Assembly (NCBI GenBank): GCA_000004985.1
Contig: GG738883.1
DNA from: Naegleria gruberi
Lineage: Eukaryota
Direction: 5' to 3' (one strand)
DNA: 64,000 nt
Position 1 is the first letter of the stretch. Each line of letters starts with the position of its first letter. Under the pieces are notes generated by a model. It saw only the letters and a list, made by a program, of their open reading frames with translations, ran no database searches and was not told the origin of the DNA. This document shows positions 488-55,214 of the stretch, piece by piece. The translations under genes were made by a program, and so were the position numbers.

Positions 488-810
488 AAAAAGAAAACCA
501 TTTTTAATACTCTAGTTTACAATCATTATCAATTAAGTTTACATAATCTCCCAAAGGCAAACTTGCCATTCCAATAGATAAAAAGCTAACGCAACCAATT
601 ATTTTCAAAATAATGAATGAGAATTGATTAATTTTATCATATTGTTAATGGACAAATGGAAAGGTTTAAGTATTTAGAAATAATAGTTGGTTAAAACTTG
701 GTCATTATTTCCAAATAATATTAGCCAGTCCATTCTAGGATAATCTCATAAATCATGAACTCTAAATGGTTATCAAACCAAACACTTTGAATGATTTGTC
801 ATTGAAATAA

Positions 811-892
811 AACCTGACAAAAGTGTAAAATGTTTACAGCGAGCGGGAAGGGAAAGGGAAACCTGACAAAAGTGTAAAATGTTTACAGCGAG
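811..892. repeat. Perfect 33-bp direct repeat (aacctgacaaaagtgtaaaatgtttacagcgag), two copies 16 bp apart
   Basis: Copy 1 is 811-843 and copy 2 is 860-892, read directly. The spacer is cgggaagggaaaggga. It sits in the 3' intergenic region between two convergent ORFs. Confidence 0.8.
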
Positions 893-2524: not shown

Positions 2525-3766
2525 ATGAAACAAGCAATCATGACTCTCAAGTTTACAAGTTTCCTTATTGCCTCAATAAGCATGTTGTTTATATATCTCT
2601 CTGTATGTCAAGTTGTTGATGCAGCAACGTGTACCAATAGTCAAGGATGTGGCGTAAGGGCATTCCTTGCAGATCTTCAACAAGAGGTTTCTCAATTAGA
2701 TTGTATCAGCAGCAAGTTGAATAATAGCATTGCAATTTTGATGTCTACAAATTCCTCAGCATTAAATTCTCAGATCAAGACCAGAGTCAAGCAATTGAAC
2801 AAGATTGAGGCTGCTAAAAAGATGTTGTCCTTAGAAATAGCTCCATTGAATGATCAATGCAACAAACAAGACGGAGACAATTGTGACTTGGCATGTTTTG
2901 GACTCGCTCCTTCCAAATATCCTTCAACAGTTTGTTCTGGTCATGGAGTATGTTCTTCTCTTGATGTCTGTTCATGTTATCCAGGATGGTCAGGTAGTAA
3001 TTGTTCTCTCGCTTCATGTAATGGAATTTTAGCAACCAATACAAGCTCTGTTTGTAATGGTCGTGGCACATGTGTTTCCAACAATACTTGTGTTTGTAAT
3101 AGTGGAGTGTATGGTCCTTACTGTGAACCAATCATTATTACTGGAGATGATACAACAGGCAGAAGAATGGCCAATGGTGTGGCCAAGGCAAGTTGTTTGG
3201 AATTTTATCAAGCTTATCCATATGCAGAATCTGGTTTTTACTACATCAAGCCACAAACTACTGAAGTATTAGTGTATTGTAATATGACTATGAGTGGTGG
3301 AGGTTTCACATTTGTTCGTCGTGTTGCAGCTGCAGGTTGGTGGCCTTTGAATGATAATTTTGGTGGAAGCGGTTCTGGAATTTATAATCCAAGATCATTA
3401 TCAGCTGCTGGTGTTACATTTGGTCTCGATTATTCCAACATTCCTAGAACTCAAGTATTAATTACAACAGGTGATGGTGTGCATTGGATTCTAGTTAATT
3501 TGGATCAACTCACTTCTGGATATGGTGGGAATGATTGTACAGCCACAATTACTCTATTAGCAAGTTCTATCAGTCCAAATACTCCTTATTCTGTACAAGT
3601 TTGCAAGAGAGGAAACTTTAATGAAGACCCATGGTTGACAACTCATAATCATTTTTACATGACAACAGATAGTGAAAGTCACAGTATGTTGTGGGGTGAA
3701 TCAAGTAATACCTATTGGCCATATTGGAAGACTAGTCATGGTGGTATCAATGTGTTTATTAGATAA
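2525..3766 (+). CDS. Secreted protein with signal peptide, coiled-coil, EGF-like Cys repeats and a fibrinogen-related (FReD-like) C-terminal domain
   Basis: There is an N-terminal hydrophobic signal (LIASISMLFIYLSVC). The EGF-like modules are CSGHGVCSSLDVCSCYPGWSGSNC and CNGRGTCVSNNTCVCNSGVYGPYCE. These are followed by SCLEFYQAYPYAESGFYYIKPQTTEVLVYCNMTMSGGGFTFVRR. That stretch matches the FReD subdomain-A signature (SC..........SG.Y.I.P....VYCDM..GGGWTV.QRR). Confidence 0.7.
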   Translation: MKQAIMTLKFTSFLIASISMLFIYLSVCQVVDAATCTNSQGCGVRAFLADLQQEVSQLDCISSKLNNSIAILMSTNSSALNSQIKTRVKQLNKIEAAKKMLSLEIAPLNDQCNKQDGDNCDLACFGLAPSKYPSTVCSGHGVCSSLDVCSCYPGWSGSNCSLASCNGILATNTSSVCNGRGTCVSNNTCVCNSGVYGPYCEPIIITGDDTTGRRMANGVAKASCLEFYQAYPYAESGFYYIKPQTTEVLVYCNMTMSGGGFTFVRRVAAAGWWPLNDNFGGSGSGIYNPRSLSAAGVTFGLDYSNIPRTQVLITTGDGVHWILVNLDQLTSGYGGNDCTATITLLASSISPNTPYSVQVCKRGNFNEDPWLTTHNHFYMTTDSESHSMLWGESSNTYWPYWKTSHGGINVFIR

Positions 3767-4944: not shown

Positions 4945-5780
4945 ATGAATGAACCATCAAACAAAAGGAAAGAGTATGGATCTAAATCAGTATACTGCAA
5001 GCAAAATAAGATTGCCCTTGATCAATTAGGAAGACTATTGAAACAATTTGATAATGGTAGTTTGACTGGAAAAGAAACATTAGCAAGAGGTAGAAAATCT
5101 CTAAAATTAACAAGTGATGAAATTGTTTCTGTAATTACTGATATTAGATCCCAAAGAGATGCTAAAAAGCAAATTTCAGATACTGCAATCCATGAAGCTA
5201 TCACAAAAATTACAAATAAGACAGTGAGTTTATCTTATTGTCACAGTTTTGGAGTTAAATATTTTGATCAAGAATCAGTGAAAACTAAAATGGTAAAAGC
5301 TGTAAAATTGGTGATCACTATATGAAAGAGTATATAGATGGTATTATTTCTATACTCTTTTCGCTAAATTGGTGTTTGAAGTATTAGAATTTAATCCTAC
5401 CAATAATGCAATATTTCTTTGATGAAACAGGCACTGATACAAACAAACAAGGCCTTAAAACATATGTAGATAGCCAAGTTGATAATGGATATGTTCCTTC
5501 ATGTAATCATATCAAAGAAAAAGATACATTCTTGGTAGGAGTGAATACTGTTGGTGAATTCTTGCCAATAAGTGTTGTTCTTTCTCAAGAAAAAAAAAAG
5601 AAGACGATTGCAGGTGAGAAAACTACTATTCAAGAGAAAGTACGTGGAGTTCACTTATCACATATTGAAACATGGGTCAAAGATGTGTTATTGCAAAAAT
5701 GTAAACGTGGTGATTTATTAATTTGGGATAATCTAGCAGCTCACAAATTTCAAAATCCAGAAATTGCTATCAGATGCTGA
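4945..5780 (+). mobile_element. Possible degraded Tc1/mariner-type DDE transposon remnant (two consecutive ORFs)
   Basis: ORF 5406-5780 ends with ...RGDLLIWDNLAAHKFQNPEIAI. This resembles the third-Asp motif of the DDE/DDD transposase catalytic domain (..DNA..H..). ORF 4945-5325 is basic and HTH-like. The location next to a tRNA and a repeat tract fits the call. No TIRs were identified. Confidence 0.3.
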
Positions 5781-7677: not shown

Positions 7678-9561
7678 TTAAAGAAGGAACAAGATAAGCA
7701 CAATCAAGCAAGAGAAATACTTCAAAGTCATACTGATGGAGACACTTCCACTTACTTGTGCCAAAGGAGCCAACAATACATTTCCACTCAAATTCTTTGT
7801 TTGACAAACAACTGAACCATTTTGGTTAGTAGTAATAATTGTTGTATCCACACTAACAGTCTCTGTAGCCCTATCATATCTTCCACAAATTGGAGTCATT
7901 GTACCAGAATATGGGATTGTAATCTTGATATAACCGTTGACAATACCATCAGCTATAGTACCATTTTCAAAAAGTGGAATAAAATCATAAACCTTAGATA
8001 CCATTTTCAATGAAGATTCTCTTTTTTTTGTTGGCTGTACAGTTCGAGCATTTGCTAAAACAGCTTGAATGCAATAATTAAATTCGTACTTGTCTGTAAT
8101 TAGGAAACATGCCAAGAAACGAGTTTTTGAAGTTGCCATTTCAATAGTAGAGGAACCAACAGGAATTAAACTAGCTCCCTTAGCAACTGCCAAATCAATG
8201 TTAGCGCTACTTGCTGTGACAACATCACCAAGTGTGAGAGCTGGTGTTAATTTCGCACCAATGGACTTGGCCAATAAAGATGACTTGTCGTTAGATGTCA
8301 ATAACAAGGCATTTGAGGCAACATTAATAACAGATTTAACAATGTCAGGAGAGAATTTAGAATTACGAGTAGATTCAATTAATGCATCTAAGGCCTTATT
8401 AGCAGACGTTTGTGTAAGTTCACCAGCAACTGAAGTGACAGATTCAAGTACTTTCACTACAGCCCCAAGATCACCTGAAGCAATATCTTTGGAGAGTGAT
8501 GTAATAATAGTATTTCTTATGGCTGCCTTTGTTGAAATTTGAGAATTATCACTTGTTGAAACTGTATTCAATAGAGAGGCAACACCTAACAAGTCTCCAA
8601 CAGACGAATTAGTGGAAAGGAGGTTAGATATGAGTGTAATAGCTTGACTAGTTGGCAAATTTGCAACTGGATTGGTGAGTGGAATGGTAGTCAATTTTTG
8701 AATACTGACGGATTTAGAACCATATGTTGCAACATAGAGATCAATTGAATTTTTACCAGAAAGTAATGGTAAAGTAAATGTAGCTGGATTTGGTGACACC
8801 TCGGTAAGAATTGTAATGGCGTCAGAATCAGCAAAACCAAATCCATAACCAAAATCAGAATCAGAATATGGATTAGAATTACCAGTAATAGTCAACTTGA
8901 AATTGGTTTTACCAGCAATGCCTGATGTAATAATTTGATTTGTGTTGGCATCTTGTAACAAGAATGTCAATTTTGGATCTTGTTGAACTACAATTGTAGT
9001 TGATTCAGTGATAGTAACACTCAAGGAAGGAGTTGTAACTTTGGCAGTCAATGAAAAACCATAAGTATTACCAGATTTAATACCATTATCAAGAGACAAC
9101 TTGTCTACCTTTCCAGGGATTTTCAATTGTGGTCTATTTAAATACCCTGCAACTGATGCCAAATCAAAAGCTGGACCAGAAACTTGTGACCAAGAATATT
9201 CAACATTAGAAATAACATCATTAGTGGCCAATGATGATATAGAAGATATAACCTGAACACCCAACATTGGGTGGGTGTATGCAGATGTTGCAACTGCACC
9301 AAAAACAGAACAATATTTACCATAAAATCGACTTGGACATGAACAAACACCAGCAGTACAACTACCATAACCACTACATTGTAGATAAACACCAATGGCT
9401 GTATCAATACATTGTTCTTCTTCTTGATTTCTCTTAATTGTGAGGTGGTTAGGATCGGAGACAGCACCATATGATAGGCAACACATATATGAGGAGAAAA
9501 CTAACCAAGCAACTAGAAGAACCAGTTTGCTGGTTGTGTGCGTGTGGATGGTTGTTGCCAT
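7678..9561 (-). CDS. Secreted, probably GPI-anchored Ser/Thr-rich surface protein with an N-terminal EGF-like module
   Basis: The likely start is the internal ATG at 9561 (MATTIHTHTTSKLVLLVAWLVFSSYMCCLSYGA, a signal peptide), not the upstream ATG at 9636. The EGF-like segment is CSGYGSCTAGVCSCPSRFYGKYCS. A long S/T/N-rich region follows. The C-terminal hydrophobic tail (YFSCLIVLILFLL) suggests a GPI anchor signal. Confidence 0.55.
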   Translation of the reverse strand: MATTIHTHTTSKLVLLVAWLVFSSYMCCLSYGAVSDPNHLTIKRNQEEEQCIDTAIGVYLQCSGYGSCTAGVCSCPSRFYGKYCSVFGAVATSAYTHPMLGVQVISSISSLATNDVISNVEYSWSQVSGPAFDLASVAGYLNRPQLKIPGKVDKLSLDNGIKSGNTYGFSLTAKVTTPSLSVTITESTTIVVQQDPKLTFLLQDANTNQIITSGIAGKTNFKLTITGNSNPYSDSDFGYGFGFADSDAITILTEVSPNPATFTLPLLSGKNSIDLYVATYGSKSVSIQKLTTIPLTNPVANLPTSQAITLISNLLSTNSSVGDLLGVASLLNTVSTSDNSQISTKAAIRNTIITSLSKDIASGDLGAVVKVLESVTSVAGELTQTSANKALDALIESTRNSKFSPDIVKSVINVASNALLLTSNDKSSLLAKSIGAKLTPALTLGDVVTASSANIDLAVAKGASLIPVGSSTIEMATSKTRFLACFLITDKYEFNYCIQAVLANARTVQPTKKRESSLKMVSKVYDFIPLFENGTIADGIVNGYIKITIPYSGTMTPICGRYDRATETVSVDTTIITTNQNGSVVCQTKNLSGNVLLAPLAQVSGSVSISMTLKYFSCLIVLILFLL

Positions 9562-10155
9562 ATGTTTTTTAAAGATCTTGATAAGGAACAAATGAACCTG
9601 TTGATGAAACTGTAGTTGCCAGTGGTGGGTTAACAATCAAGGATTCTTTAAGCGGATTGGGTTGTGGGCACATTTAATTTCAATCAAAAGTTCATCAGGA
9701 ATAAATTTGATATTGTATTATTTCACAAATTACTTTCTTTTCCAATGAAGATAAAAGATGAAGAGATAGAACCTTCCTTTTGATTTTATTCCTGGCTAAT
9801 GATGGAAAACAATGATGATGGTTTGTTTGGTGAATAATCGGAGCACCAACTTGAATTTTCCACGATGAAATATAAGTTTCCAATCACATGATGAAAATTC
9901 ACTTCTTAAAATTGATGTGAATTATTCTTTGATTTCATGATGTGAGAAATCACTCTGAAAATCAGCATTGCCACAAAGTACCTGTTGACGAATATTGTTA
10001 ATCCTGATTCAAATTTTACTATTAAAACTCCCAACCCCACCTCAATACCAAAAGTGTATTAAGTGTGAATAAAGCTCCGAGGAGTAAGTAGTTCTAATTT
10101 ACTGCCATCTTATTTCGAATACAGATGAAATGCACATTCTAACAAATTAAAAAAA

Positions 10156-17986: not shown

Positions 17987-20900
17987 TTAGTTGGATTTTG
18001 ATTCGAGAATTGATTTCAGCTTATTCAATTCTGACATAATCTCAGTAAATGAAGGACGAACAGACGGATCCTTATCCCAACAAACTTGCATCAGCTCAAG
18101 ATACTTCCTAGTAAATTCTGATAATATCTCCAATGGCAATTTCTTCTCTGTTGGTAACACAAACTCACTCAACCAAATATTCATCTCCTCATTGGTAGAG
18201 AAGGGTATTTTAGGTCTTGACCCCTTTAACACTCTGCATAGAATAGTATATTCATTCGTGCTGTTTGTTGCATCATTTGATCCAAATCTGTGAATTTTGA
18301 AAACTCTGGAATTACAATAACAGTGTTCCTCAAAGAAAACTTCCCACATAATAATGGAGAAACTGTACACATCAACTTTGGTGGTATAGGATCCACTTTC
18401 AATCATTTCGGAGGCCATGTAGAAAACTGTGCCGATGTTCTTAGTTGAGGCACTATCAGTGGGTGTTGATAATCCAAAATCTGAAACCTTTCCAACAAAA
18501 TCATTACTAATGAGTATATTTCCTGGTTTTAAATCTCTATTTATGGAAATCAATAAAAAAACTTAAATTAACTAAAGAAACATACCTGTGAATCAATGGA
18601 GGATTCAATGTGTGAAGATATTTCATTCCATTGGCAATTGAAATTAAAATATCAAGTTTTCCTTTCAAATTCAAAGGAGAAACTCCTATTCTTGAATTGT
18701 AAATCAATCGATCCAAACTTCCATTACCAATGTACTCCACAACCATGTATTTGTTGTTGGAGGTCTTGGAAATTCCATAAAATTTGACAATATTTGGATG
18801 AGATAAACTATTTAAAATTGCTGCCTCTCGTTCAAACTCACCAACTTCATCACCGGTAGTATCTGACTTGAGTGCTTTGATGGCAACTTGTTTACCTTTC
18901 CATTTACCCAAATAAACAACACCATTACTTCCCTCTCCTATTTTCTTTTCAATTGAAATTTCCTCAATTGGAATAATCAAAGATTGTGAAGTAAAGGATT
19001 TATCTGAAGTTACCAAAAGTGGTTGACTTAAAGAATTGAATGAATTTTCAATAATTACGTCTTCCAAATTCTTTTCGGCAATTTCCTTTCTCTTGAGAAG
19101 GTTTAGTTTCATATAAACATGTCTCACTCCTCTAAAAGTAAGAAACAATAAAAGAATGATAAAAATCATTAAGAGAATTCCAAGAACCACACTGATTGGA
19201 ATTATTATTTGCTCAGAATTATCAGTATCAATACAAACAAAACCAGTAGAAAGTGGATTTTGAAGTACTTTTCCTTTTGGACAATCTGCAATATTAATAG
19301 TGATATTTTGAACAATATTTTGGATTGTAATATATCCATGCACTTGTCTCAGTTGCATTTTGTCTATGTCAAGTGAATAGGTTACAGAATTAAGTTGATT
19401 TGGAATAAGCTTTTTCGAATAAATCGTACCCTCTGATAAGGAAACAACGTCCACTTGACTTTGTAATTTCTTGACTGAAACCCTTTCTCCTTTACCCGTA
19501 TAGGTCTGTAAATTTCCTATACTAATGGTCAGCTCTTGTCCTGGGTATTGTGAATAGATAACATCTTGGTTTTGAATGAATTTGGAAACAACACTAGTAG
19601 CAGATATAACTTCTACAGTAAATGTTATATTATTTAGAGGTTCTCCAATGATATCTCCATATGATCCGGCTTCATTATTATCCTCCATGAGAAAACTTGA
19701 TACAATAATATAAGGACCTGGCTCTGAAATATAAATACAACCTCCTGAGAATACAGCACGATTGTATGAACACTTCAAATAATCCAAAAGCACTAATGGT
19801 TTTGGGTTTTCAACAAAAATAGCACCTCCAAGTTGTGCCGTATTATGTGTATTCGTTGAAGCTCTCAAATCCAAAGCATCTGTTCCCAATAATTTGGCAT
19901 AGATAGCACCTCCCATTTGGGCACTATTGTTGTTTGCGAGTAGTCTTAATGAAATTGCCAATCCTTCAACATAGACAGCACCTCCTCTCACTGCCTTGTT
20001 TCCATTGAATGTGCAATCATTAATTTGAATGATATTTGCCTTTATATAAACTCCATGTTGTATTGTTAAATCACCATTGTAGTTAAAATCACAATAATTC
20101 ATTAATAAAGATGATTGGGCAACATCCATCAACGAATCAATACGTATGGAAATACTAGAATTTCTAAAGTTAGTTTGAAATAGTGCAATGTAATTACTTT
20201 GAGAAACGCTGATACCATTTTTAACATTATTGAAATTATTAGAGAGGAACATTGTTTGTAAAGTGTTAGCAATTTGGAGTACTGGACTGTTTGCCAGTAA
20301 ATTATGAAATTCATTGAATCCAATTTTTAAAGAATTAATGTTATAGGCGTAGAATTGAAATTCGCCATCACTCACATTGTTGTTTTCAAATTTTGAAGAT
20401 GCCAAAAAGCTCTGTCGAATGGTTACAGAGCCAGTGAAGGTATTTTGTGAAATTTCAGAGGTTCTACAAATCAAAAAATCAGAATCTTTCACTCTACTGC
20501 GCAATAAGGAAAATCTTAGCTCAACCATATTGTCTCTATCAGATAGAGAAGAGGAAATAAATTGATACTTTTCAATGGTACAATTATTGAAAAATGTGCC
20601 AGGATTTAAAGATGGAGTCTCTTGTGTGTGTTTGATGTTTTTAAGTGTGGAATTTGCAAAATTTGCTGTAACAGTTGCGTAAAATTCAACAAATTCTAAT
20701 TGAGAATTTACAACAGACACAGAAATTGTTCCAAACTGACGACTTGGTTCATAAATTACTGAATTAAGTAGAATGGAATTCTCAATCTCTATCAATGGAA
20801 CAGCAACCAAACTGTTGCCACCATTGTTCAAAGTAAAATCAAAAAGTTTCAATCCCGACAACTTTAATCCATTCATGGCATTTAAATAAGTAAAGAAAGA

Positions 20901-21446
20901 TCCTCCATTACATTCAAATTGAATCCTCTTACTTTGATCAAATGATTCCAAGATCAAACTTTGCAATGGTTGATAACATACTATTCCACACTTGTATTCT
21001 CCATCCATCAAGTAGACATGAACTCTAGAAAATCTAATAGAATTGGCATAGGAAATAGCCTCTTCTACACTCTTGCAAGGGTTATTAGGGGATGTACAAT
21101 TGCGTTCTGTATTTAAGGATGACGGCTTAACATAGACAAATACATAACCAGATGACAATTGTTGATCAAATGATGATGATGTCGTTGTTGTTGTTGAATT
21201 ATCAACCAGAGCATTAATTACCACTGGTAGGCACATGAAAAGCAAAAAGAAAATCGGGGATATTTTCAGTGGAGTCATTTTTCTTGTTTTTGGAAGTGGG
21301 AAGAGATTCCAGTTCAATTTAATCTGGATAGCTGCTGAGGTAGGCACATTCTTCTGATCTTTATCGGAGAAGTAACTGTAATTAAGTATCCTTACTTTCG
21401 AAAGTAAGTTGATGATAAACTTTGATGCAGACAATGTCAATACCAT
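17987..21446 (-). CDS. Receptor-like Ser/Thr (TKL-like) kinase with a Pmp-type beta-helix ectodomain; 2 exons
   Basis: Exons are 21446-18586 and 18536-17987. The 49-nt intron (18537-18585, GTATGT...ATAG) splits the catalytic loop as IHR|DLKPGNILI. The signal peptide is MTPLKISPIFFLLFMCLPVVINA. Ectodomain repeats are GGAVYVEG, MGGAIYAK, LGGAIFVEN and SGGCIYISE. The TM segment is IIPISVVLGILLMIFIILLLFL. The kinase shows KIGEGSNGVVYLGKWKGKQVAIK...DFGLS...DVYSFSIIMWE. Confidence 0.75.
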
Positions 21447-21641: not shown

Positions 21642-24019
21642 TTACAGAACAGAATCAAAATTCTTCTTTGCTGACTTTAGCTTATTCTTGATGGTATCAG
21701 TAAAGCTGGTATTTTTTGAATAATCATTTGGATTTGGTCTTTCTCTTCCATGCTTCTCGTAAACTCTATCTAGACGAGATTTGTGTGAACTTTTAGTTTC
21801 TTGTGGTTCTGAAAAGTCATCATAGTCATAGTTATCCTCATTCACTTCAACGAGTTTGATATTGTCATCAATCTCAATTCTTGTCTCAAAATCTTCATTT
21901 TCATCCAATGAAATATTAACAGCTGATCTCAAGTCGTTTTCTTCTAATTTGTCGAATGAGGAGGAAATCTTTTCAGCACTAACATTTTGAAGTTGTCTCA
22001 ACTTCTTAGCACGAGCTCTATGTAATATTTCTCTGCCTTCCAAAATTGTTTCGTCACTCATATTTGATCCAGTATAACTAAATCTTTGAATATTACACAA
22101 AGTTCCACATCTTTCAATAAGTTTGAACATTGTAATAAAGGCAACAACAATAATTAACAATGGGAAGTAATCGACAATAAAACCACCAAGTAAACCAAAA
22201 ATACGAAGACCATCTACTCTCAAAGCTCCATAAATTGCAAAGTAGGCAACACCATCATCAGGGTCGACACCAACCATCTGCAAAAAGTTGAAACACATAG
22301 TCGGAATGGCTCTGCACAATAAGAGAGCTGTATAGAATAAAGTGTAAGAGTCAGTGTGATGAGGAACCATTTGGAACAAGTACAAAATTCTAACTCTATA
22401 CATGGCAAAGAGGAGTGTTACAAGGATCAACCCCAAAATGAGAAGAGCAACTATCTGGATAGCAAAACGATCTCTCATAGACATGATTATCAACTCTAAA
22501 ATAGATAAACTCAATCTCTTGGTAGCATAAATGTTCTTGAAGAGAGGTGTAAATTCACACCACATGATAATCAAACCAAATGGAACGAATGCAAGAGCCA
22601 ATAATTTCAAAAGTAGAGATCTCAAATATTTAACATAAATCCACTCTGGTTTTTCTATAATTGTTTGTACAACCTTTGGTCTTGGACTACGGAATGGAGA
22701 AGCAACTTTCATGTCAGAACTGTTTTCCTTTGAGTGAATTACATCTTGCAAGATGAATGCCTTCTTTTGGAGATGTTTCCATTGATATTGTTTGGAACTA
22801 AACTCACGAATAGCTTTTTGGAGCAATCTGTGAATCTTTACACAATCTGATCTTGATAAATCTTCAATGTTTTTAGGAAGCAAACCATCATCAACATCTC
22901 TTGAGGTGGATCTTCTAATTGCCTTATTCAACTGTGGGTGATCGCGAATCACTTCTTCGACAGTCATCATTATACGCTCCACATTCTTAAATTGTTTGTG
23001 TGTTGAGTCGACCTTTCTTTCCAATATCTTACAAACTCCCAAATAATCCAACAATTCATTTTCCAATTCCTCTAATTCTTCCACAATAGTTGGTGTAGTA
23101 AATTCGTACAATTGCAATTGACGTTCGTCATTAGAGGTTTCCCATAAATATCTAGGAACTGCAATTATACCATAACCAATGAAACCAACCAACAAGACCA
23201 AACCATAAATATTGGATAAACTCAAACCCAGACCAGCTATCAAATCTAGTGAAATTATCTGAGCATTGGCTGGATCATTCGCATTAGAAATTGCAATGTA
23301 AATGCAAAATCCTCCCAAACCAAGACCTCCCACAAGTAACATAATTGAGTAGGTAATCAAGTTATCCAAAATAGCACGAAGCCATCTGAAAATTGCCAAG
23401 AATTCACCGGTATACAAGTAACTCTGGAAAATTGGTAGTAAAATCCAAGATAACACTTGTAGTGTCCAATATATAACTCTCCACATGGTTACAAGTGCCG
23501 GATCAGGCTTCATCTTTTTGTTTAATTTATCATTTGAAATTGCCTGTTTTCATCATCCACATGTTGTTTGTTGTTGTTGTTTAAATTCCATAATAATGAT
23601 TGATATGAAATTTGTATTACACAATTTAACCAAGTTTTAAATTCACAACATTATAAAGTTAAATTACTTACGGAAGCTAAATCTATACAACATAAGAAAA
23701 CAGCCAAGAAGAGCAATAAATAGGTAATTAACAATGGAATGTACAAGAACCAAGGGAATGGGTTCGATTTGGTGTAGTACCTCAACAGTGCTACAGAGGC
23801 AATGGTTCCTAAAATCAACGTAAAAGCCAAACTCACAAAGAAGAAGGCATCCATTGAGTGTTGTGTATCTACATTGGTTCCATTCGTAAAGTTATATGTA
23901 TTGTTGCTATTGATGATAGGTGGAGAAGGTCCAGCTAAAATACTATTAGCAATCGGATAGAGTATATTAGCCAAAAGGCTATCCGAGGTAGAAGAAGATA
24001 CCTCTCCCTGTTGATTCAT
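21642..24019 (-). CDS. LMBR1 domain-containing multi-pass membrane protein (LMBRD2-like); 2 exons
   Basis: Exon 1 is 24019-23672 (...CCIDLAS|GTAAGT). The intron is 23544-23671 (128 nt, ...AAAACAG|). Exon 2 is 23543-21642 and begins AISNDKLNKKMKPDPALV. There are nine or more TM helices and a central coiled-coil loop. MWRVIYWTLQVLSWILLP...YGIIAVPRYLW resembles the LMBR1 family. Confidence 0.65.
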
Positions 24020-51234: not shown

Positions 51235-54200
51235 ATGCATGTTTGGCTTTTTTTGATCCTCTTACTCTCGCTGAGTTTGCTGGTTCGTTTTTCAACGTCG
51301 GCCACATCATCAACCACATCACAGTATTCCTCTTCTTCCTTCGTTTCATTTCTTAACAATCGAATATATAATCAAACTAATTATTATCCGAAACGATTTA
51401 TTCAATTCTCTGAACATGAAACTACTCATGATCATATTAAAAGACAACAATCACAGTTGTCATCATTAGAATCGCCACCATCATCATCTATAAACAAAAT
51501 TGATTTTAATGACTATAGTTTCCTACTAACTAATAATCAAAACTATACTTCCGATTATCCATATATTTCTCCATTCAATTCCACCTATTCTTTACCACCT
51601 TGCTGTACTACCCTAAACGGAAATGAAAATGCCCTATTCGAAACTAAAAAGCTATTAAACATGGCTAAAAACACAAAACGAATTGAAATGGAAAAATGCA
51701 GAAATGCAGCACTTGATAGTATATTCGGATTGGATTGTGTTGTCATTGAATTGGAATATATATTGGAGAATTCGACGAGTTCTGAACTGAGGAGGAATTC
51801 AGTGAATGGTTCAATGGAAAGTATTCGAAATGAAACTGTTTATTCATCACTTGATGAAATATATCAAGTATTTAAAAGAGATGTGACGATAATTGCTGAG
51901 AGAGAAAATCAAAAATCAGCATTTTCGTATAAAAAGATTCCTGAGGGAATTATTTCACTGAGAGTACGTGTCTTGTCAGATATGGTGAACGAGGAAAATT
52001 GTACTCTTCAAATGGATATTGGACAAATATTCAATTCATCATCGATTAGAAGACCTATTGCAGATTATAAGGTATTCTTTGAATTGTACAGTGAAAATCA
52101 AAGACATGAATTATATTGCAGAGTTAATGTTGATAGTTCTCTGTTTTTTTCAACATTTAGAGGATTGACTTTACGTTTGGTAACACATAATTTGAGTTAT
52201 TATGCAGAAAGGGTGACATTTCTTAGTGGAGCACTAAATGGAGGATTATTTGCTGTTTATTCACAGGTGGAATTGAGGCAGAATATACTCTTTTCACAAA
52301 CACGTGTTACTTTATTTGAAGAATTGAATTATTTTGGACAAAATTGGATTCTTCAAAGAGATAATTCAAATAATATTAATGCAATTTTTGTAGATAGTAA
52401 TATGACAGTGTATTTCGAAGACGTTCTTAAAGGAAGAAATATGTGGTTTCTGAATACAACTTTAGAGATTGATAGTGAGTTTTTGATTGAGGAAGTGAAT
52501 GAAATTTTGATTCACAAATGTACTATCAAATCGAAAGGAAATACTTCGGATAGAGATTTTGCAAACTTGCAAATATCATTTGCGAATATTGTTGAAATTC
52601 ATAGTACAGTATTCGAAACAGTAAATGGAAAGACCATTTTAGGAATTGGTGAAAGTATTGATGTCAACCTCATTGATACACATTTCACTGATCATAGAAA
52701 TGAAGCTGGCTCTCTAATTTACATGAAGAATCTAAGAAATTTGGTGATTTCCAAATCTCATTTTTTGAGGAATTGGGTTGGTTCAAGTGTTCTCTTCCTC
52801 AGTAACATAATTGCGGGTTTTATTAGTGATTGTAGATTTGAAGAAAATGAATCTGTTATATCAAATGGTATAATCTTCGTTCAATCTGCTGGATCTTTCA
52901 AAAGGGTGCTGATTAGCTCATCTATTTTTATTAGAAACAGAGCGTATGATCGTGGAGGATGCATTCATGCCTCTGATACTTCAGTTCACGTTCACTTTAG
53001 TGAATTTCGTGAAAATTATGCTCCTTCAGGAAGTGCTATCTATGCACAAGAAACAGAGCTCTCAATTGAAAGCTGCAATTTTATTGATAATTATTCAGAG
53101 ATGAGTGGTGGAGCTATTTTTATTAATGGCAATTTCAGTAGTGTTAATTCAAACTTTTACAATAACTCTGTGAATTTGAAATCAAATTATCCATGCACGT
53201 CATATTGCAGTGGAAGTGGAGGAGCCATTTCGTATGCATCTACAGAATTAGATACAATTCAGCTCTTTCTTGTTGATTCCAAATTCGAGAATAATAGTGC
53301 TATTAGAGGTGGAGCTCTCTCTATCAAGTACCTATCCAATACTCCAAAAATTACTTGGGAATCCGTCAAGATTTATAATAATTATGCCAAATCTGGAGGT
53401 GGAATATTTTTCTTTGAATTGATTGACAACAAAATTCTATCATCCACATTCGAAAGAAATAGAGCTGACTTTTATGGAAATGACATGGCTTCTTCCACTA
53501 GGTCAATTGAGTGGAATATTATGGGAAAATCACCAAATTCTCAAATAAGTGTGTTCCCAGGGCAGACTTTTTCCCTCAAGACATTTACTAAGGATTATTT
53601 CGGAGCTAATATTGGAGATTTGTGGGAGTATTATATTTTGACTGTGAATGATACACGATTTAATTTAAAAAAACCCACTCAAACTAATCGAAATGACACC
53701 ATTGAGGGTTTGTTCATTTACAGTACAAAGATTCAAACTGAGCCAACATATATTCGGTTGTGGATTGATTTTTCACAATCCTTTAGTTATTTGGATATTC
53801 TAGTTAAGGGGTGTCCTGAGAATTATGAATTGATTTCTGCTAATTATGGATCAGAAAATTCCTATATTTGTCAAGCTGTGCCAAGTGTAACTGTTATTAT
53901 TATAACAGTTGTTGTTTCTTCATTTGTTGCATTTTCAGTCTTTGTTATTGTTTCTACAATTTTGGGATATGCCATTTTCAGATTAACAAAAAAGCTCTTA
54001 TATTGGAAAGAAAGAATTAAGGTGGAGAAGGATGTAGAAAAGAGACTATTCGAAAGTGGAATAAGGTGTACGAAAGAGGAAATCAAAGCATCAGGCGAGT
54101 ATAGTCTTGCAAGAAAAAATGTTTTCATTATTGGTCTTGATCAGGTTCACATTGAAAAGAAAATTGGAGAAGGTAAGTGTATCATTCAACGCATGTTTCT

Positions 54201-55214
54201 AATAACCTATTATTAGGAGGAGCTGGTTTCGTTTACAAAGGAAAGTGGAATCACAACACAGTTGCCATCAAATGTCTAAGAGTGGAGGGATCAGAAAGCG
54301 AATTTCTCAGTGATGAAATTGAGAGAGAGGCAACCCATTTGTCTAAACTCAGACATCCGAATGTACTCATGTTCTACGGTATTTCTGTAACTCCACAAAA
54401 ACACTATTTGATTATTGAATATTTGGAAAAGGGAAGTTTGGAAAATTTAATAATTGAAAGTAGGAAACATTCATTATTGAATTTGGAAATGAAATTGTCA
54501 ATCCTAATTGACATTGCATGTGGAATGGAATATTTACACTCTTCACATATTATTCATCGTGATCTCAAGAGTGGCAATGTTCTCCTTGACGCCAACAATG
54601 TTGCAAAGGTTTGTGACTTTGGATTGAGTAAGATCATGTCCAATTCATGTCAACATTCAACTATTGCTAATGTGGGCACGATTTATTTCATGGCCGTGGA
54701 ATTATTTTCTGAAAAACTGAGCTCCTCCACTGTCATTACACCAGCCATTGACGTTTATAGTTTTGGAATTATTATGCATGAGCTCTTTTTCGAGGAACGT
54801 CCCTACAATCTCTCAAAGAATAGCAAATTATTAATGTGGAAGAATGAGCAAGAGACAATCACATCTCCATTCGCAATGCTACCAAGAATTATCAAAGGAG
54901 AAAGACCCTTCATTCCATTTGAGGATGATTATAGTATGGATGAGTATTTGCAAATGGCTGTACCTGAATATCGTCGAATGAATAATTCTAGTTTGGTGTC
55001 CTTGATCAAGATGGAAAAGTACAGACAAGTTGTAACAGATTATATTGAACTAATGACCAAGTGTTGGAGTGGAGAGCCAACAGCTCGTCCCAATTTCACA
55101 ACTGTCAATGAAACTCTCCAATCTATGAAACGTAAATTGAAAGAAATTGGAAAACATGACGAGCAAGTAAGTGGTTACAAAAAGTTGGTGGACGTAGAAC
55201 TGGAAATGAAGTAA
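51235..55214 (+). CDS. Receptor-like Ser/Thr (TKL-like) kinase with a Pmp-type beta-helix ectodomain; 2 exons
   Basis: Exon 1 is 51235-54172 and the intron is 54173-54216 (44 nt, GTAAGT..TATTAG). Exon 2 is 54217-55214. The intron splits the glycine loop as IGEG|GAGFVYKGKW. Signal peptide MHVWLFLILLLSLSLLVRFSTSA. Ectodomain repeats are RGGCIHASD, SGGAIFING, SGGAISYAS, RGGALSIKY and SGGGIFFFE, with FxxN units FRENYAP, FIDNYSE, FYNNSVN, FENNSAI and FERNRAD. TM segment VIIITVVVSSFVAFSVFVIVSTILGYAIF. Kinase motifs are HRDLKSGNVLL, DFGLS and DVYSFGIIMHE. Confidence 0.8.

What the first reader, a model, noticed from the sequence alone, without database searches (positions are those of the whole stretch)
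2525..3766. Tenascin/angiopoietin-like architecture (EGF repeats + fibrinogen-related domain) in an apparently non-metazoan genome
The secreted 413-aa protein has a coiled-coil, then two or more EGF-like cysteine modules, then a stretch (SCLEFYQAYPYAESGFYYIKPQTTEVLVYCNMTMSGGGFTFVRR). That stretch matches the N-terminal subdomain of fibrinogen C-terminal (FReD) domains: C...SG.Y.I.P...VYCDM..GGGWTV.QRR. FReDs are overwhelmingly metazoan and rare in bacteria and protists. Finding one with EGF repeats in an AT-rich protist-like genome suggests either ancient origin or horizontal acquisition. The downstream half diverges from canonical FReD, so it may be a novel variant.
Basis: partly seen in the sequence, partly recalled or inferred. 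Interest (0 to 1): 0.6.

Follow-up and report, generated by a model that had tools for sequence, protein, structure and literature searches.

The report
Fibrinogen-like lectin-type gene in Naegleria
The amoeba Naegleria gruberi encodes a secreted protein with a coiled-coil stalk, two EGF modules and a divergent fibrinogen/intelectin-like head whose closest relatives are bacterial, so it resembles animal angiopoietins and ficolins by convergent assembly rather than shared descent.

Summary
ORF 2525-3766 (+) is N. gruberi XP_002674556.1 / UniProt D2VMW3, an uncharacterised "predicted protein". It has a signal peptide or anchor, a heptad coiled-coil region, two EGF_2 modules and a 190-aa C-terminal domain.

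The quoted motif matches NCBIfam NF040941 "GGGWT_bact" (47 bits, cutoff 30). Pfam Fibrinogen_C scores below threshold (15.9 vs 22 bits) and covers only model positions 14-48 of 221. This stretch is FReD subdomain A, the mobile "NEC" module.

The head belongs to a large, unnamed family (328 clusters) found in bacteria, a phage-like contig and protists. The Naegleria copy groups with bacterial proteins that have Flp-prepilin-like leaders, including one from an Alphaproteobacteria MAG. Its EGF pair is Naegleria-type.

No orthologue was seen in N. fowleri, N. lovaniensis or Willaertia. Codon usage is native. The best reading is an old bacterial transfer fused to a native stalk, giving a probable multivalent binding protein. 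It is a new variant of a known kind and moderately interesting.

The parts
2525..3766 (+). Complete single-exon CDS, 413 aa plus stop. It is N. gruberi XP_002674556.1 / D2VMW3 (NAEGRDRAFT_70282).
   Evidence: ORF list. Exact-sequence look-up. A 99% identical intact allele exists on an ENA metagenome contig.
2525..2623 (+). aa 1-33: N-terminal signal peptide, or possibly a type II signal anchor. Hydrophobic core FTSFLIASISMLFIYLSV, then VDA|A.
   Evidence: Sequence inspection. AlphaFold models helix 2-32. Cleavage was not tested.
2648..2866 (+). aa 42-114: two long helices with heptad periodicity, a putative oligomerising coiled coil. It is bracketed by Cys36/42/60 and Cys112/120/124.
   Evidence: AF2 helices 42-74 and 79-114, pLDDT 62-81. 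a/d hydrophobic occupancy 89% and 70%. No homologue found for this region.
2921..3007 (+). aa 133-161: EGF-like module 1 (EGF_2 / teneurin-type).
   Evidence: Pfam EGF_Teneurin 137-161 and EGF 133-159. Best matches are Naegleria EGF proteins.
3038..3124 (+). aa 172-200: EGF-like module 2 (EGF_2).
   Evidence: Pfam EGF_2 172-200; the whole-protein EGF_2 score is 40.7 bits. The pair aa 117-204 is 44-49% identical to Naegleria proteins P0004, P0005 and P0002, E 1e-22 to 1e-25.
3191..3316 (+). aa 223-264: FReD subdomain A, i.e. the 'NEC' module or GGGWT_bact motif, with the Cys224-Cys252 pair and VYCNM..GGGF. Phe replaces the usual Trp.
   Evidence: NCBIfam NF040941 47.2 bits, model positions 1-46 of 46. 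Pfam Fibrinogen_C 15.9 bits, positions 14-48 of 221. PDB profile hits E 1e-11 to 1e-6. NEC concept from PMC2211786.
3296..3763 (+). aa 258-413: family-specific beta core from GGGF to the C-terminal NVFIR. Conserved residues: R265, W272, D277, G316-D317, W321, R362, E367-D368-P369-W370, H376, S387-M388-L389, G391-E392, G407, N409, R413. Second Cys pair 338/360.

Best explanation
This is a Naegleria gruberi gene for a secreted or surface protein built from two sources.

**Native stalk.** It has a signal peptide, a heptad coiled coil that probably oligomerises the protein, and two Naegleria-type EGF modules acting as a spacer.

**Bacterial-type head.** The C-terminal globular domain consists of FReD subdomain A (the NEC / GGGWT module) fused to a ~150-residue beta core. 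The core has no sequence-detectable relative among solved structures but is predicted to fold like the intelectin / fibrinogen-related core. This head most likely entered the N. gruberi lineage by an old horizontal transfer from a bacterium and was then fused to the stalk.

**Mechanism.** The coiled coil clusters two or three heads, giving multivalent, avidity-based binding to a surface ligand. The most likely ligand is a glycan on bacterial prey or on the amoeba or cyst surface. This parallels ficolins, intelectins and angiopoietins, but was assembled independently.

**Shown:** the anatomy, the homology of subdomain A, the fold prediction, the bacterial affinity of the head, the Naegleria affinity of the EGF pair, and native codon usage.

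**Inferred:** oligomerisation, secretion, direction of transfer, and ligand type.
For: - **Anatomy:**
- **Subdomain A:** NF040941 47.2 bits; profile against PDB gives intelectin XEEL 1.1e-11 and tenascin, FIBCD1, fibrinogen beta, Ang1/2 and ficolins at 1e-9 to 1e-6.
- **Family size:** 328 clusters at E<=1e-3. 29 of 34 members hit Fibrinogen_C and 7 hit COLFI.
- **Bacterial affinity of the head:**
  - BLAST gives 129-141 bits (39-43% identity) to P0157, P0011, P0012 and P0016, against 94 bits (31%) to the heterolobosean Pharyngomonas protein.
  - The NJ tree makes that clade its sister in 62 of 100 bootstraps.
  - It shares 12 clade-specific residues with that clade, against 0-1 with other groups; random groups give mean 0.29 and maximum 3.
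  - P0011 is from an Alphaproteobacteria MAG. P0157 and P0012 are tandem genes next to an Hsp90/HtpG gene.
  - Other members lie in Pseudomonadota, Deltaproteobacteria and Brocadiia MAGs.
- **Native stalk:** the EGF pair is 44-49% identical to N. gruberi and N. lovaniensis proteins, E 1e-22 to 1e-25, against E>=7e-4 for the bacterial relatives' EGF modules.
- **Lineage restriction:** the neighbouring LMBR1-like gene has 55-71% orthologues in N. lovaniensis, N. fowleri and Willaertia. No such hit exists for this protein.
- **Functional gene:** the allele is intact, all 5 replacements are conservative, and the CDS is 99.2% conserved against ~95% for the flanks.
- **Binding role by analogy:** the domain sits at the C-terminal tip of prepilin-like, He_PIG, Calx-beta and giant adhesin-like bacterial proteins. 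The same fold occurs in cyanophage proteins, one of them named tail-fibre-like.
Against: - There is no experimental or expression evidence.
- Ligand-binding and Ca2+ residues of FReDs and intelectins could not be mapped.
- Tree support is moderate (44-62%) and distance-based only.
- Eukaryotic family members exist. The deep-branching heterolobosean Pharyngomonas kirbyi has an analogous layout of anchor, coiled coil, Cys-rich linker and domain, which keeps vertical inheritance possible.
- Orthologue absence in other Naegleria rests on annotated proteomes, not genome tblastn.
- The long hydrophobic N-terminus could be a membrane anchor rather than a cleaved signal peptide.
- The EGF region is poorly modelled (pLDDT <50).
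Confidence: 0.6

Rival explanations
1. The head was inherited vertically from an ancient eukaryotic or heterolobosean gene and lost in other Naegleria. Its resemblance to bacterial sequences would then reflect rate artefacts or eukaryote-to-bacteria transfer.
For: The family occurs in eukaryotes: Pharyngomonas kirbyi (Heterolobosea) with an analogous layout of anchor, coiled coil, Cys-rich linker and domain; another EukProt protein (P0044); Chlamydomonas sp. UWO241; and a 733-kb eukaryote-like contig. Codon usage is fully native. Bootstrap support for the bacterial grouping is only 44-62%.
Against: The Naegleria domain scores 141 bits against the bacterial clade and 94 bits against Pharyngomonas. 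It shares 12 clade-specific residues with the bacterial clade and none with the Pharyngomonas clade. It never grouped with Pharyngomonas in 100 bootstraps. No orthologue appears in annotated N. fowleri, N. lovaniensis or Willaertia proteomes, although a neighbouring gene has them.
Confidence: 0.22
2. It is a genuine canonical fibrinogen-related domain protein, a tenascin or angiopoietin homologue, either shared with animals or acquired from an animal.
For: The domain order is similar. There is a weak Pfam Fibrinogen_C hit and weak angiopoietin-1 phmmer hits.
Confidence: 0.03
3. The head is not a lectin. It would instead be a protein-protein adhesion or structural module, for example for cyst wall or matrix assembly, cell-cell contact or receptor engagement, as in angiopoietin-Tie2 or FGL1-LAG3.
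For: Many FReDs bind proteins (established knowledge). The canonical P-subdomain sugar / Ca2+ site is not detectable. Family members fused to BTB-BACK lack signal peptides, which implies protein recognition in the cytosol.
Against: The closest structural match is a glycan-binding lectin, intelectin-1. Bacterial and phage contexts (pilin-like tips, a tail-fibre-like protein) suggest recognition of cell-surface ligands, which are often polysaccharides. None of this is decisive.
Confidence: 0.3
4. The gene is bacterial contamination or an assembly artefact in the Naegleria genome.
For: The head is of bacterial type.
Against: The gene lies inside a 64-kb eukaryotic window on a 371-kb N. gruberi scaffold. 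GC3 is 0.258, within the neighbours' range of 0.228-0.358. The same ORF carries Naegleria-type EGF modules. An independent environmental contig has the same architecture at 99% identity, with flanks ~95% identical.
Confidence: 0.01

Closest known systems
Intelectins (X-type lectins; human intelectin-1 4WMQ, Xenopus XEEL 4WMO)
   Different: The intelectin domain is ~280 aa, against ~190 here. Sequence alignment stops at about profile position 93. Intelectin's Ca2+ / diol-binding residues could not be matched. Identity is 13%. Intelectins are known from animals, whereas this family is microbial.
Canonical fibrinogen-related domains (angiopoietins/ANGPTL, ficolins, tenascins, FGL1, fibrinogen beta/gamma, tachylectin 5A; Pfam PF00147)
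   Different: Below the Pfam threshold. The P subdomain, its Ca2+ site and ligand pocket are not detectable. Family-specific motifs take their place: W.P..DN, TGDG.(K/H)W, EDPW..DH, HSML(Y/W)GE and G.NVF(I/V)R. There is no FN3. The EGF modules are of Naegleria type.
NCBIfam NF040941 'GGGWT_bact' (bacterial fibrinogen-like YCDxxxxGGGW domain)
   Same: Full-length match, 47.2 bits against a cutoff of 30. The closest relatives also match at 39-60 bits.
   Different: The model covers only the 46-residue N-terminal module. It does not describe the ~150-residue core, and it was built for bacteria, not eukaryotes.
NEC module (Pradel et al. 2004, PMC2211786), stand-alone in apicomplexan CCp adhesins
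   Same: The same alpha-beta3 unit with one disulfide. It is documented as a separable module shared by fibrinogen-family proteins, fibrillar collagen C-propeptides, ficolin and intelectin, and it is already known in a protist. This fits the A-only repeats and A-less cores seen in this family.
   Different: In CCp proteins NEC stands alone, and that paper grouped it with animal sequences. Here it is joined to a specific core and groups with bacterial sequences.
Fibrillar collagen C-propeptide (COLFI, PF01410) and phage proteins named as collagen NC1, fibrinogen C-terminal or tail-fibre-like
   Different: The Naegleria protein itself has no COLFI hit, and the structural similarity is lower than to intelectin or FReDs.

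Membership tests
Pfam PF00147 Fibrinogen_C (canonical FReD) | Whole-domain HMM score at or above the gathering threshold (22 bits) over the ~220-position model | tested here: not met
   15.9 bits for the full protein and 16.8 bits for the domain alone. Only model positions 14-48 of 221 match.
Pfam PF00147 Fibrinogen_C (canonical FReD) | Subdomain A: Cys pair plus the YCDM...GGGWT motif | tested here: met
   C224 and C252; VYCNMTMSGGGFT, with Trp replaced by Phe. PDB profile hits E 1e-11 to 1e-6 over this region.
Pfam PF00147 Fibrinogen_C (canonical FReD) | Subdomain B beta-sheet core fold | tested here: met
Pfam PF00147 Fibrinogen_C (canonical FReD) | P subdomain with Ca2+ site, second canonical disulfide and ligand pocket | tested here: not met
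   No sequence alignment extends beyond about profile position 78-93. The core-only profile finds no PDB chain at E<=10 and no Pfam family. A different Cys pair (338/360) is present. A 3D comparison of the site was not possible.
NCBIfam NF040941 GGGWT_bact | HMM score at or above the curated cutoff (30 bits) | tested here: met
   47.2 bits, E 1.7e-12, aa 223-264, model positions 1-46 of 46.
Intelectin / X-type lectin | Overall fold similarity | tested here: met
Intelectin / X-type lectin | Intelectin-specific C-terminal region (~280-aa domain) with Ca2+-coordinated diol-binding residues | tested here: not met
   The domain is ~190 aa. The HMM alignment to XEEL and ITLN1 ends at profile position 78-93. 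The core profile has no PDB hit. Residue-level superposition was not available.
NEC module (PMC2211786) | N-terminal alpha-beta3 unit stabilised by one disulfide, separable from the rest of the FReD | tested here: met
   In domain numbering, the AF2 model has helix 23-29 and strands 36-40, 47-52 and 60-66, with C23 and C51. Family members occur with A-only repeats and with A-less cores.
Tenascin family | Heptad region, then EGF repeats, FN3 repeats and a canonical FReD; EGF and FReD orthologous to animal tenascins | tested here: not met
   No FN3 hit. The EGF pair is closest to Naegleria proteins. The head is closest to bacterial proteins.
Angiopoietin / ANGPTL family | Coiled coil plus a canonical FReD with a receptor-binding P domain | tested here: not met
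   A coiled coil is present, but the head fails the Pfam threshold and lacks a detectable P subdomain.
Unnamed 'GGGW...EDPW...NVFxR' core family (this work) | ~150-aa core with conserved W.P..DN, TGDG.(K/H)W, R....EDPW, (H)SML(Y/W)GE and a C-terminal G.NVF(I/V)R | tested here: met
   All motifs are present. phmmer gives E 1e-20 to 1e-33 to many members, with 328 clusters at E<=1e-3. Alignments A1, A2 and A5.
Horizontally acquired gene (bacteria to N. gruberi lineage) | Nested within donor diversity, absent from sister taxa, and resident in the host genome | tested here: inconclusive
   Nearest clade is bacterial. No orthologue appears in annotated proteomes of related species. The gene has a native genomic context and codon usage. 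However, support is moderate, only distance trees were made, no genome tblastn was possible, and a Pharyngomonas homologue exists.

The most novel reading that the evidence does not exclude
The fibrinogen / intelectin / collagen-propeptide fold superfamily has a large, essentially undescribed microbial radiation in bacteria, phages and diverse protists. It is built from a mobile NEC module and a separable ~150-residue core that currently has no Pfam model and no solved structure. Naegleria gruberi captured one bacterial head of this type, from a protein with a prepilin-like leader, and mounted it on its own coiled-coil / EGF stalk. It thereby reinvented, independently of animals, the oligomeric pattern-recognition lectin design of ficolins, intelectins and angiopoietins, possibly for recognising bacterial prey.
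Probability: 0.3. Interest if true: 0.65.

Novelty: new variant of a known kind. Interest (0 to 1): 0.45.

Why it matters
Fibrinogen-related lectins are usually treated as an animal innovation in innate immunity and matrix biology. This gene shows that a sister branch of the fold is widespread in microbes. It also shows that a bacterivorous amoeba assembled an angiopoietin- or ficolin-like oligomeric binder from a bacterial-type head and native stalk modules.

If the head binds microbial glycans, it would be a case of convergent pattern recognition outside animals. It would also be an experimentally tractable entry point (a single-exon gene in a culturable organism) into a family of several hundred uncharacterised proteins. 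Some of those are fused to BTB-BACK adaptors or prepilin-like leaders.

If the head turns out to be an ordinary adhesion module, the finding is still a useful annotation for D2VMW3 and an argument for a new domain model.

Tried and rejected
- **AFDB50 fold search:** the library was not available.
- **The search for related loci with the broad alignment A1:** it had no stretch conserved enough to search with.
- **Narrower alignment A3:** it found only 4 bacterial MAG loci in GTDB genomes and none in IMG/VR, because the motif patterns are strict. This says little about true abundance.
- **Metagenome scan with the single domain:** no close relative.
- **Exact look-up of a neighbouring protein:** failed, so the organism was identified by homology search instead.
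- **Paralogues in the window:** none for the head.
- **Flanks:** no transposase or other Pfam family in the flanking small ORFs, and only short chance-level repeats. There is no visible vehicle for transfer.
- **First bootstrap script:** timed out and was re-run with a faster distance calculation.
- **Literature:** no paper mentions the locus tag or accessions. Doolittle et al. 2012 on FReD evolution is not held.
- **Rejected readings:**
  - Contamination.
  - A canonical tenascin or angiopoietin homologue.
  - Recent HGT, because codon usage is native.
  - A giant-virus origin for the AT-rich contig carrying P0035, which is phage-like.
  - 'A-less' members as exon artefacts, since they also occur in bacterial MAGs.
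Full report
**1. Observation**

The ORF is at exactly 2525..3766 on the + strand and encodes 413 aa. An exact-sequence look-up identifies it as Naegleria gruberi XP_002674556.1 / EFC41812.1 / UniProt D2VMW3 (NAEGRDRAFT_70282). It is annotated only as "predicted protein" and lies on a 371,401-bp scaffold.

The window is N. gruberi. The LMBR1-like neighbour at 21642-23513 is 100% identical to an N. gruberi protein. That neighbour has orthologues of 71%, 69% and 55% identity in N. lovaniensis, N. fowleri and Willaertia magna. Other neighbours are typical eukaryotic genes: kinases, Ras/ankyrin, DUF4116 and Sel1. No paper in the library mentions the locus.

**2. Anatomy**

| Residues | Feature | Evidence |
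|---|---|---|
| 1-33 | Signal peptide or signal anchor: K2/K9, 18-residue hydrophobic core, VDA\|A | Inspection; AF2 helix 2-32 |
| 42-114 | Two long helices with heptad periodicity; a/d positions 89% and 70% hydrophobic, ~12% elsewhere; cysteines at both ends | |
| 133-161, 172-200 | Two EGF modules, above Pfam thresholds: EGF_2 40.7 bits, EGF_Teneurin 38.6 bits | |
| 222-413 | Globular head | See sections 3 and 4 |

The protein also has six N-glycosylation sequons and 22 cysteines, which fits an extracellular protein. AlphaFold models the EGF region poorly (pLDDT <50) and the head very well.

**3. The fibrinogen-like stretch**

Pfam Fibrinogen_C is below threshold: 15.9 bits against 22. It covers only model positions 14-48 of 221.

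NCBIfam NF040941 "GGGWT_bact", the bacterial fibrinogen-like YCDxxxxGGGW domain, matches aa 223-264 over its whole 46-position model. The score is 47.2 bits against a cutoff of 30, E 1.7e-12.

A profile of the family (A1) hits many PDB structures at E 1e-11 to 1e-6: intelectins, tenascin-R/C, FIBCD1, fibrinogen beta/gamma, angiopoietins, ficolins and MFAP4. The match is confined to profile positions ~12-78.

This stretch is FReD subdomain A. Pradel et al. 2004 (PMC2211786) had already defined it as a separable "NEC" module. They found it in fibrinogen-family proteins, fibrillar collagen C-propeptides, ficolin and intelectin, and stand-alone in apicomplexan CCp adhesins. The Cys224-Cys252 pair is present. 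The usually conserved Trp of GGGW is Phe in both Naegleria alleles.

**4. The rest of the head**

A profile of the core alone, from GGGW to the C-terminus (A5), finds no PDB chain at E<=10. No member matches a Pfam family.

With a 72-sequence alignment, AlphaFold2 gives a confident model of aa 202-413: mean pLDDT 92, pTM 0.90. Fold comparisons are as follows.

| Search | Result |
|---|---|
| Foldseek vs PDB | All top 50 hits are FReDs or intelectin |
| Foldseek vs BFVD | Best hits are phage proteins, mostly cyanophage, some named "Fibrillar collagen NC1", "Fibrinogen C-terminal" or "tail fiber-like"; E 8e-8 to 1e-3 |

The head is therefore a divergent member of the fibrinogen / intelectin / COLFI fold superfamily. 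The canonical P subdomain, which carries the Ca2+ and ligand site, is not detectable. It is replaced by family-specific conserved blocks:

- W.P..DN
- TGDG.(K/H)W
- R....EDPW..(D/N)H
- HSML(Y/W)GE
- C-terminal G.NVF(I/V)R

**5. The family**

An exhaustive phmmer search of the head against 1.84 billion representatives found 328 proteins at E<=1e-3 and 61 at E<=1e-10. Of 34 aligned members, 29 hit Fibrinogen_C (N-terminal part only) and 7 hit COLFI.

Architectures are very diverse:

- **Bacterial, pilin-like:** Flp/Tad-prepilin-like leaders, with or without He_PIG or Calx-beta, then the domain. P0011 is from an Alphaproteobacteria MAG.
- **Bacterial, lipoprotein-like:** signal, then EGF_2, then the domain.
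- **Giant bacterial proteins:** up to 13 copies. One cluster includes Nevskiaceae MAG proteins.
- **Cores without subdomain A:** in a Ca. Brocadiia MAG, in an uncultured bacterium, and on a eukaryote-like 733-kb contig.
- **Phage-like:** one copy on a 143-kb, 23.5% GC contig.
- **Algal:** Chlamydomonas sp. UWO241.
- **BTB-BACK fusions:** no signal peptide; one is a EukProt entry.
- **Pharyngomonas kirbyi (Heterolobosea):** anchor, coiled-coil-like region, Cys-rich linker, then the domain.

**6. Origin of the Naegleria gene**

*Resident gene.* GC3 is 0.258, within the neighbours' range of 0.228-0.358. The synonymous-codon likelihood ranks 15th of 27 ORFs. The gene is therefore resident and any transfer is not recent.

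*Under constraint.* A 99% identical environmental allele (ENA ERZ929261) keeps the ORF intact. It differs by 4 synonymous and 5 conservative replacements, and the flanks are only ~95% identical. With just nine differences this is weak evidence.

*Mosaic.* The EGF pair is 44-49% identical to Naegleria EGF proteins, including named N. lovaniensis and N. gruberi proteins (E 1e-22 to 1e-25). The EGF modules of the bacterial relatives score E>=7e-4. The coiled-coil region has no homologue.

*Head groups with bacteria.* Three lines of evidence agree:

- BLAST gives 129-141 bits (39-43% identity) to the bacterial Flp-type clade, against 94 bits (31%) to Pharyngomonas.
- That clade is the Naegleria domain's sister in 62 of 100 NJ bootstraps, and Pharyngomonas never is.
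- It shares 12 clade-specific residues with that clade and 0-1 with any other group. Random groups of four give mean 0.29 and maximum 3.

*Restricted distribution.* No orthologue of the head appears among annotated N. fowleri, N. lovaniensis or Willaertia proteins or in JGI metagenomes. There is no paralogue in the window.

*Conclusion.* The most economical reading is an old bacterium-to-Naegleria transfer of the head, followed by fusion to a native stalk. Vertical inheritance with loss is not excluded for four reasons. Eukaryotic members exist. Pharyngomonas has an analogous architecture. Only distance trees were possible. Genomes could not be searched by tblastn.

**7. Likely function**

The design is an oligomerising coiled coil, a rigid EGF spacer and a C-terminal FReD-superfamily head. 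Ficolins, intelectins, tachylectins and angiopoietins use the same design for multivalent recognition.

In bacterial relatives the domain sits at the C-terminal tip of pilin-like or adhesin-like proteins. The fold also occurs in cyanophage proteins, one of them named tail-fibre-like.

I infer a secreted or surface multivalent binding protein, most likely recognising glycans on bacterial prey or on the amoeba or cyst surface. A protein ligand remains a serious alternative. The conserved acidic, aromatic and histidine residues (D277, D317, E367, D368, W370, H376, E392) are candidates for a ligand or metal site. I could not map them in 3D.

**8. Verdict**

- **Observation:** confirmed.
partly supported. 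The architecture, the superfamily assignment and the divergent downstream half are right. The implied kinship with tenascins or angiopoietins and the presumed rarity of such domains outside animals are not.
- **Novelty:** a new variant of a known kind. The NEC module is known. The ~150-residue core family has no Pfam model and no solved structure, and it spans bacteria, a phage-like contig and protists.
- **Interest:** moderate.

Noticed in passing
Related proteins P0044 and P0031 (and probably P0034); not in the window: The same fibrinogen-like head is fused to N-terminal BTB/POZ (72 bits) and BACK domains, with no signal peptide. This looks like a cytosolic E3-adaptor architecture with a FReD-superfamily head as the recognition module. 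P0044 is a EukProt eukaryote entry.
   Followed up: partly
P0042 (EukProt EP00761 Pharyngomonas kirbyi P009546): A deep-branching heterolobosean has an analogous layout: membrane anchor, long coiled-coil-like region, Cys-rich linker, then the domain. Its head is only 31% identical to the Naegleria one and falls in a different clade. This could be convergent architecture or very old shared ancestry.
   Followed up: partly
L007:3001-3504, L008:3001-3477, L009:6001-6504; also P0009 and P0010: Many family members start at GGGW and lack subdomain A (NEC). They occur in a Ca. Brocadiia MAG, an uncultured bacterium and a eukaryote-like 733-kb contig, and as tandem A-less repeats. Conversely, giant proteins such as P0008 and P0018 repeat the A module alone. 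The two halves of the 'FReD' behave as independent modules.
   Followed up: partly
L002:10001-10942 (ENA ERZ27264780 k141_272871, 143,456 bp): Family member P0035 lies on a 23.5% GC, ORFan-rich contig. The contig has a strong match to phrog_33734 (E 7e-114), an HNH endonuclease and a ThyX-like gene, so it looks like a large phage genome.
   Followed up: partly
P0008 (4035 aa, JGI metagenome, 276-kb contig): This giant protein has 11 partial Fibrinogen_C matches, near-full-length COLFI matches (E 1.8e-37) and a Laminin_G_3 domain. It links the fibrinogen and collagen-propeptide families outside animals.
   Followed up: no
L010:139-2253: The two closest relatives of the Naegleria head (P0157 and P0012) are tandem genes 25 bp apart. 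Both have Flp-prepilin-like leaders and lie next to an Hsp90/HtpG gene on a 44% GC contig. The Flp_Fap Pfam scores are below the curated cutoff.
   Followed up: partly
window 3296-3307 (aa 258-261): The near-invariant Trp of the GGGW motif is Phe (GGGF) in N. gruberi and in the 99% environmental allele.
   Followed up: no
window 7678-9636 (-): The neighbouring 652-aa ORF has a hydrophobic stretch near its N-terminus, one EGF_2 module (22.4 bits) and a hydrophobic C-terminus. It is probably another Naegleria surface protein.
   Followed up: no
window 18537-21446 (-) and 51235-54216 (+): Two large ORFs carry Chlamydia polymorphic-membrane-protein (Chlam_PMP) repeats. One of them is fused to a protein kinase domain. 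This is another bacterial-type repeat in Naegleria proteins.
   Followed up: no
window 810-843 and 859-892: A perfect 34-nt direct repeat, AAACCTGACAAAAGTGTAAAATGTTTACAGCGAG, with copies starting 49 nt apart. It lies in the intergenic region about 1.6 kb upstream of the gene.
   Followed up: no
window 4945-5780 (+): Two adjacent ORFs of about 125 aa lie downstream of the gene. By eye the second, with the stretch ...DLLIWDNLAAHK..., resembles a DDE-transposase remnant. No Pfam family was detected at E<=0.01, so this is unconfirmed.
   Followed up: partly
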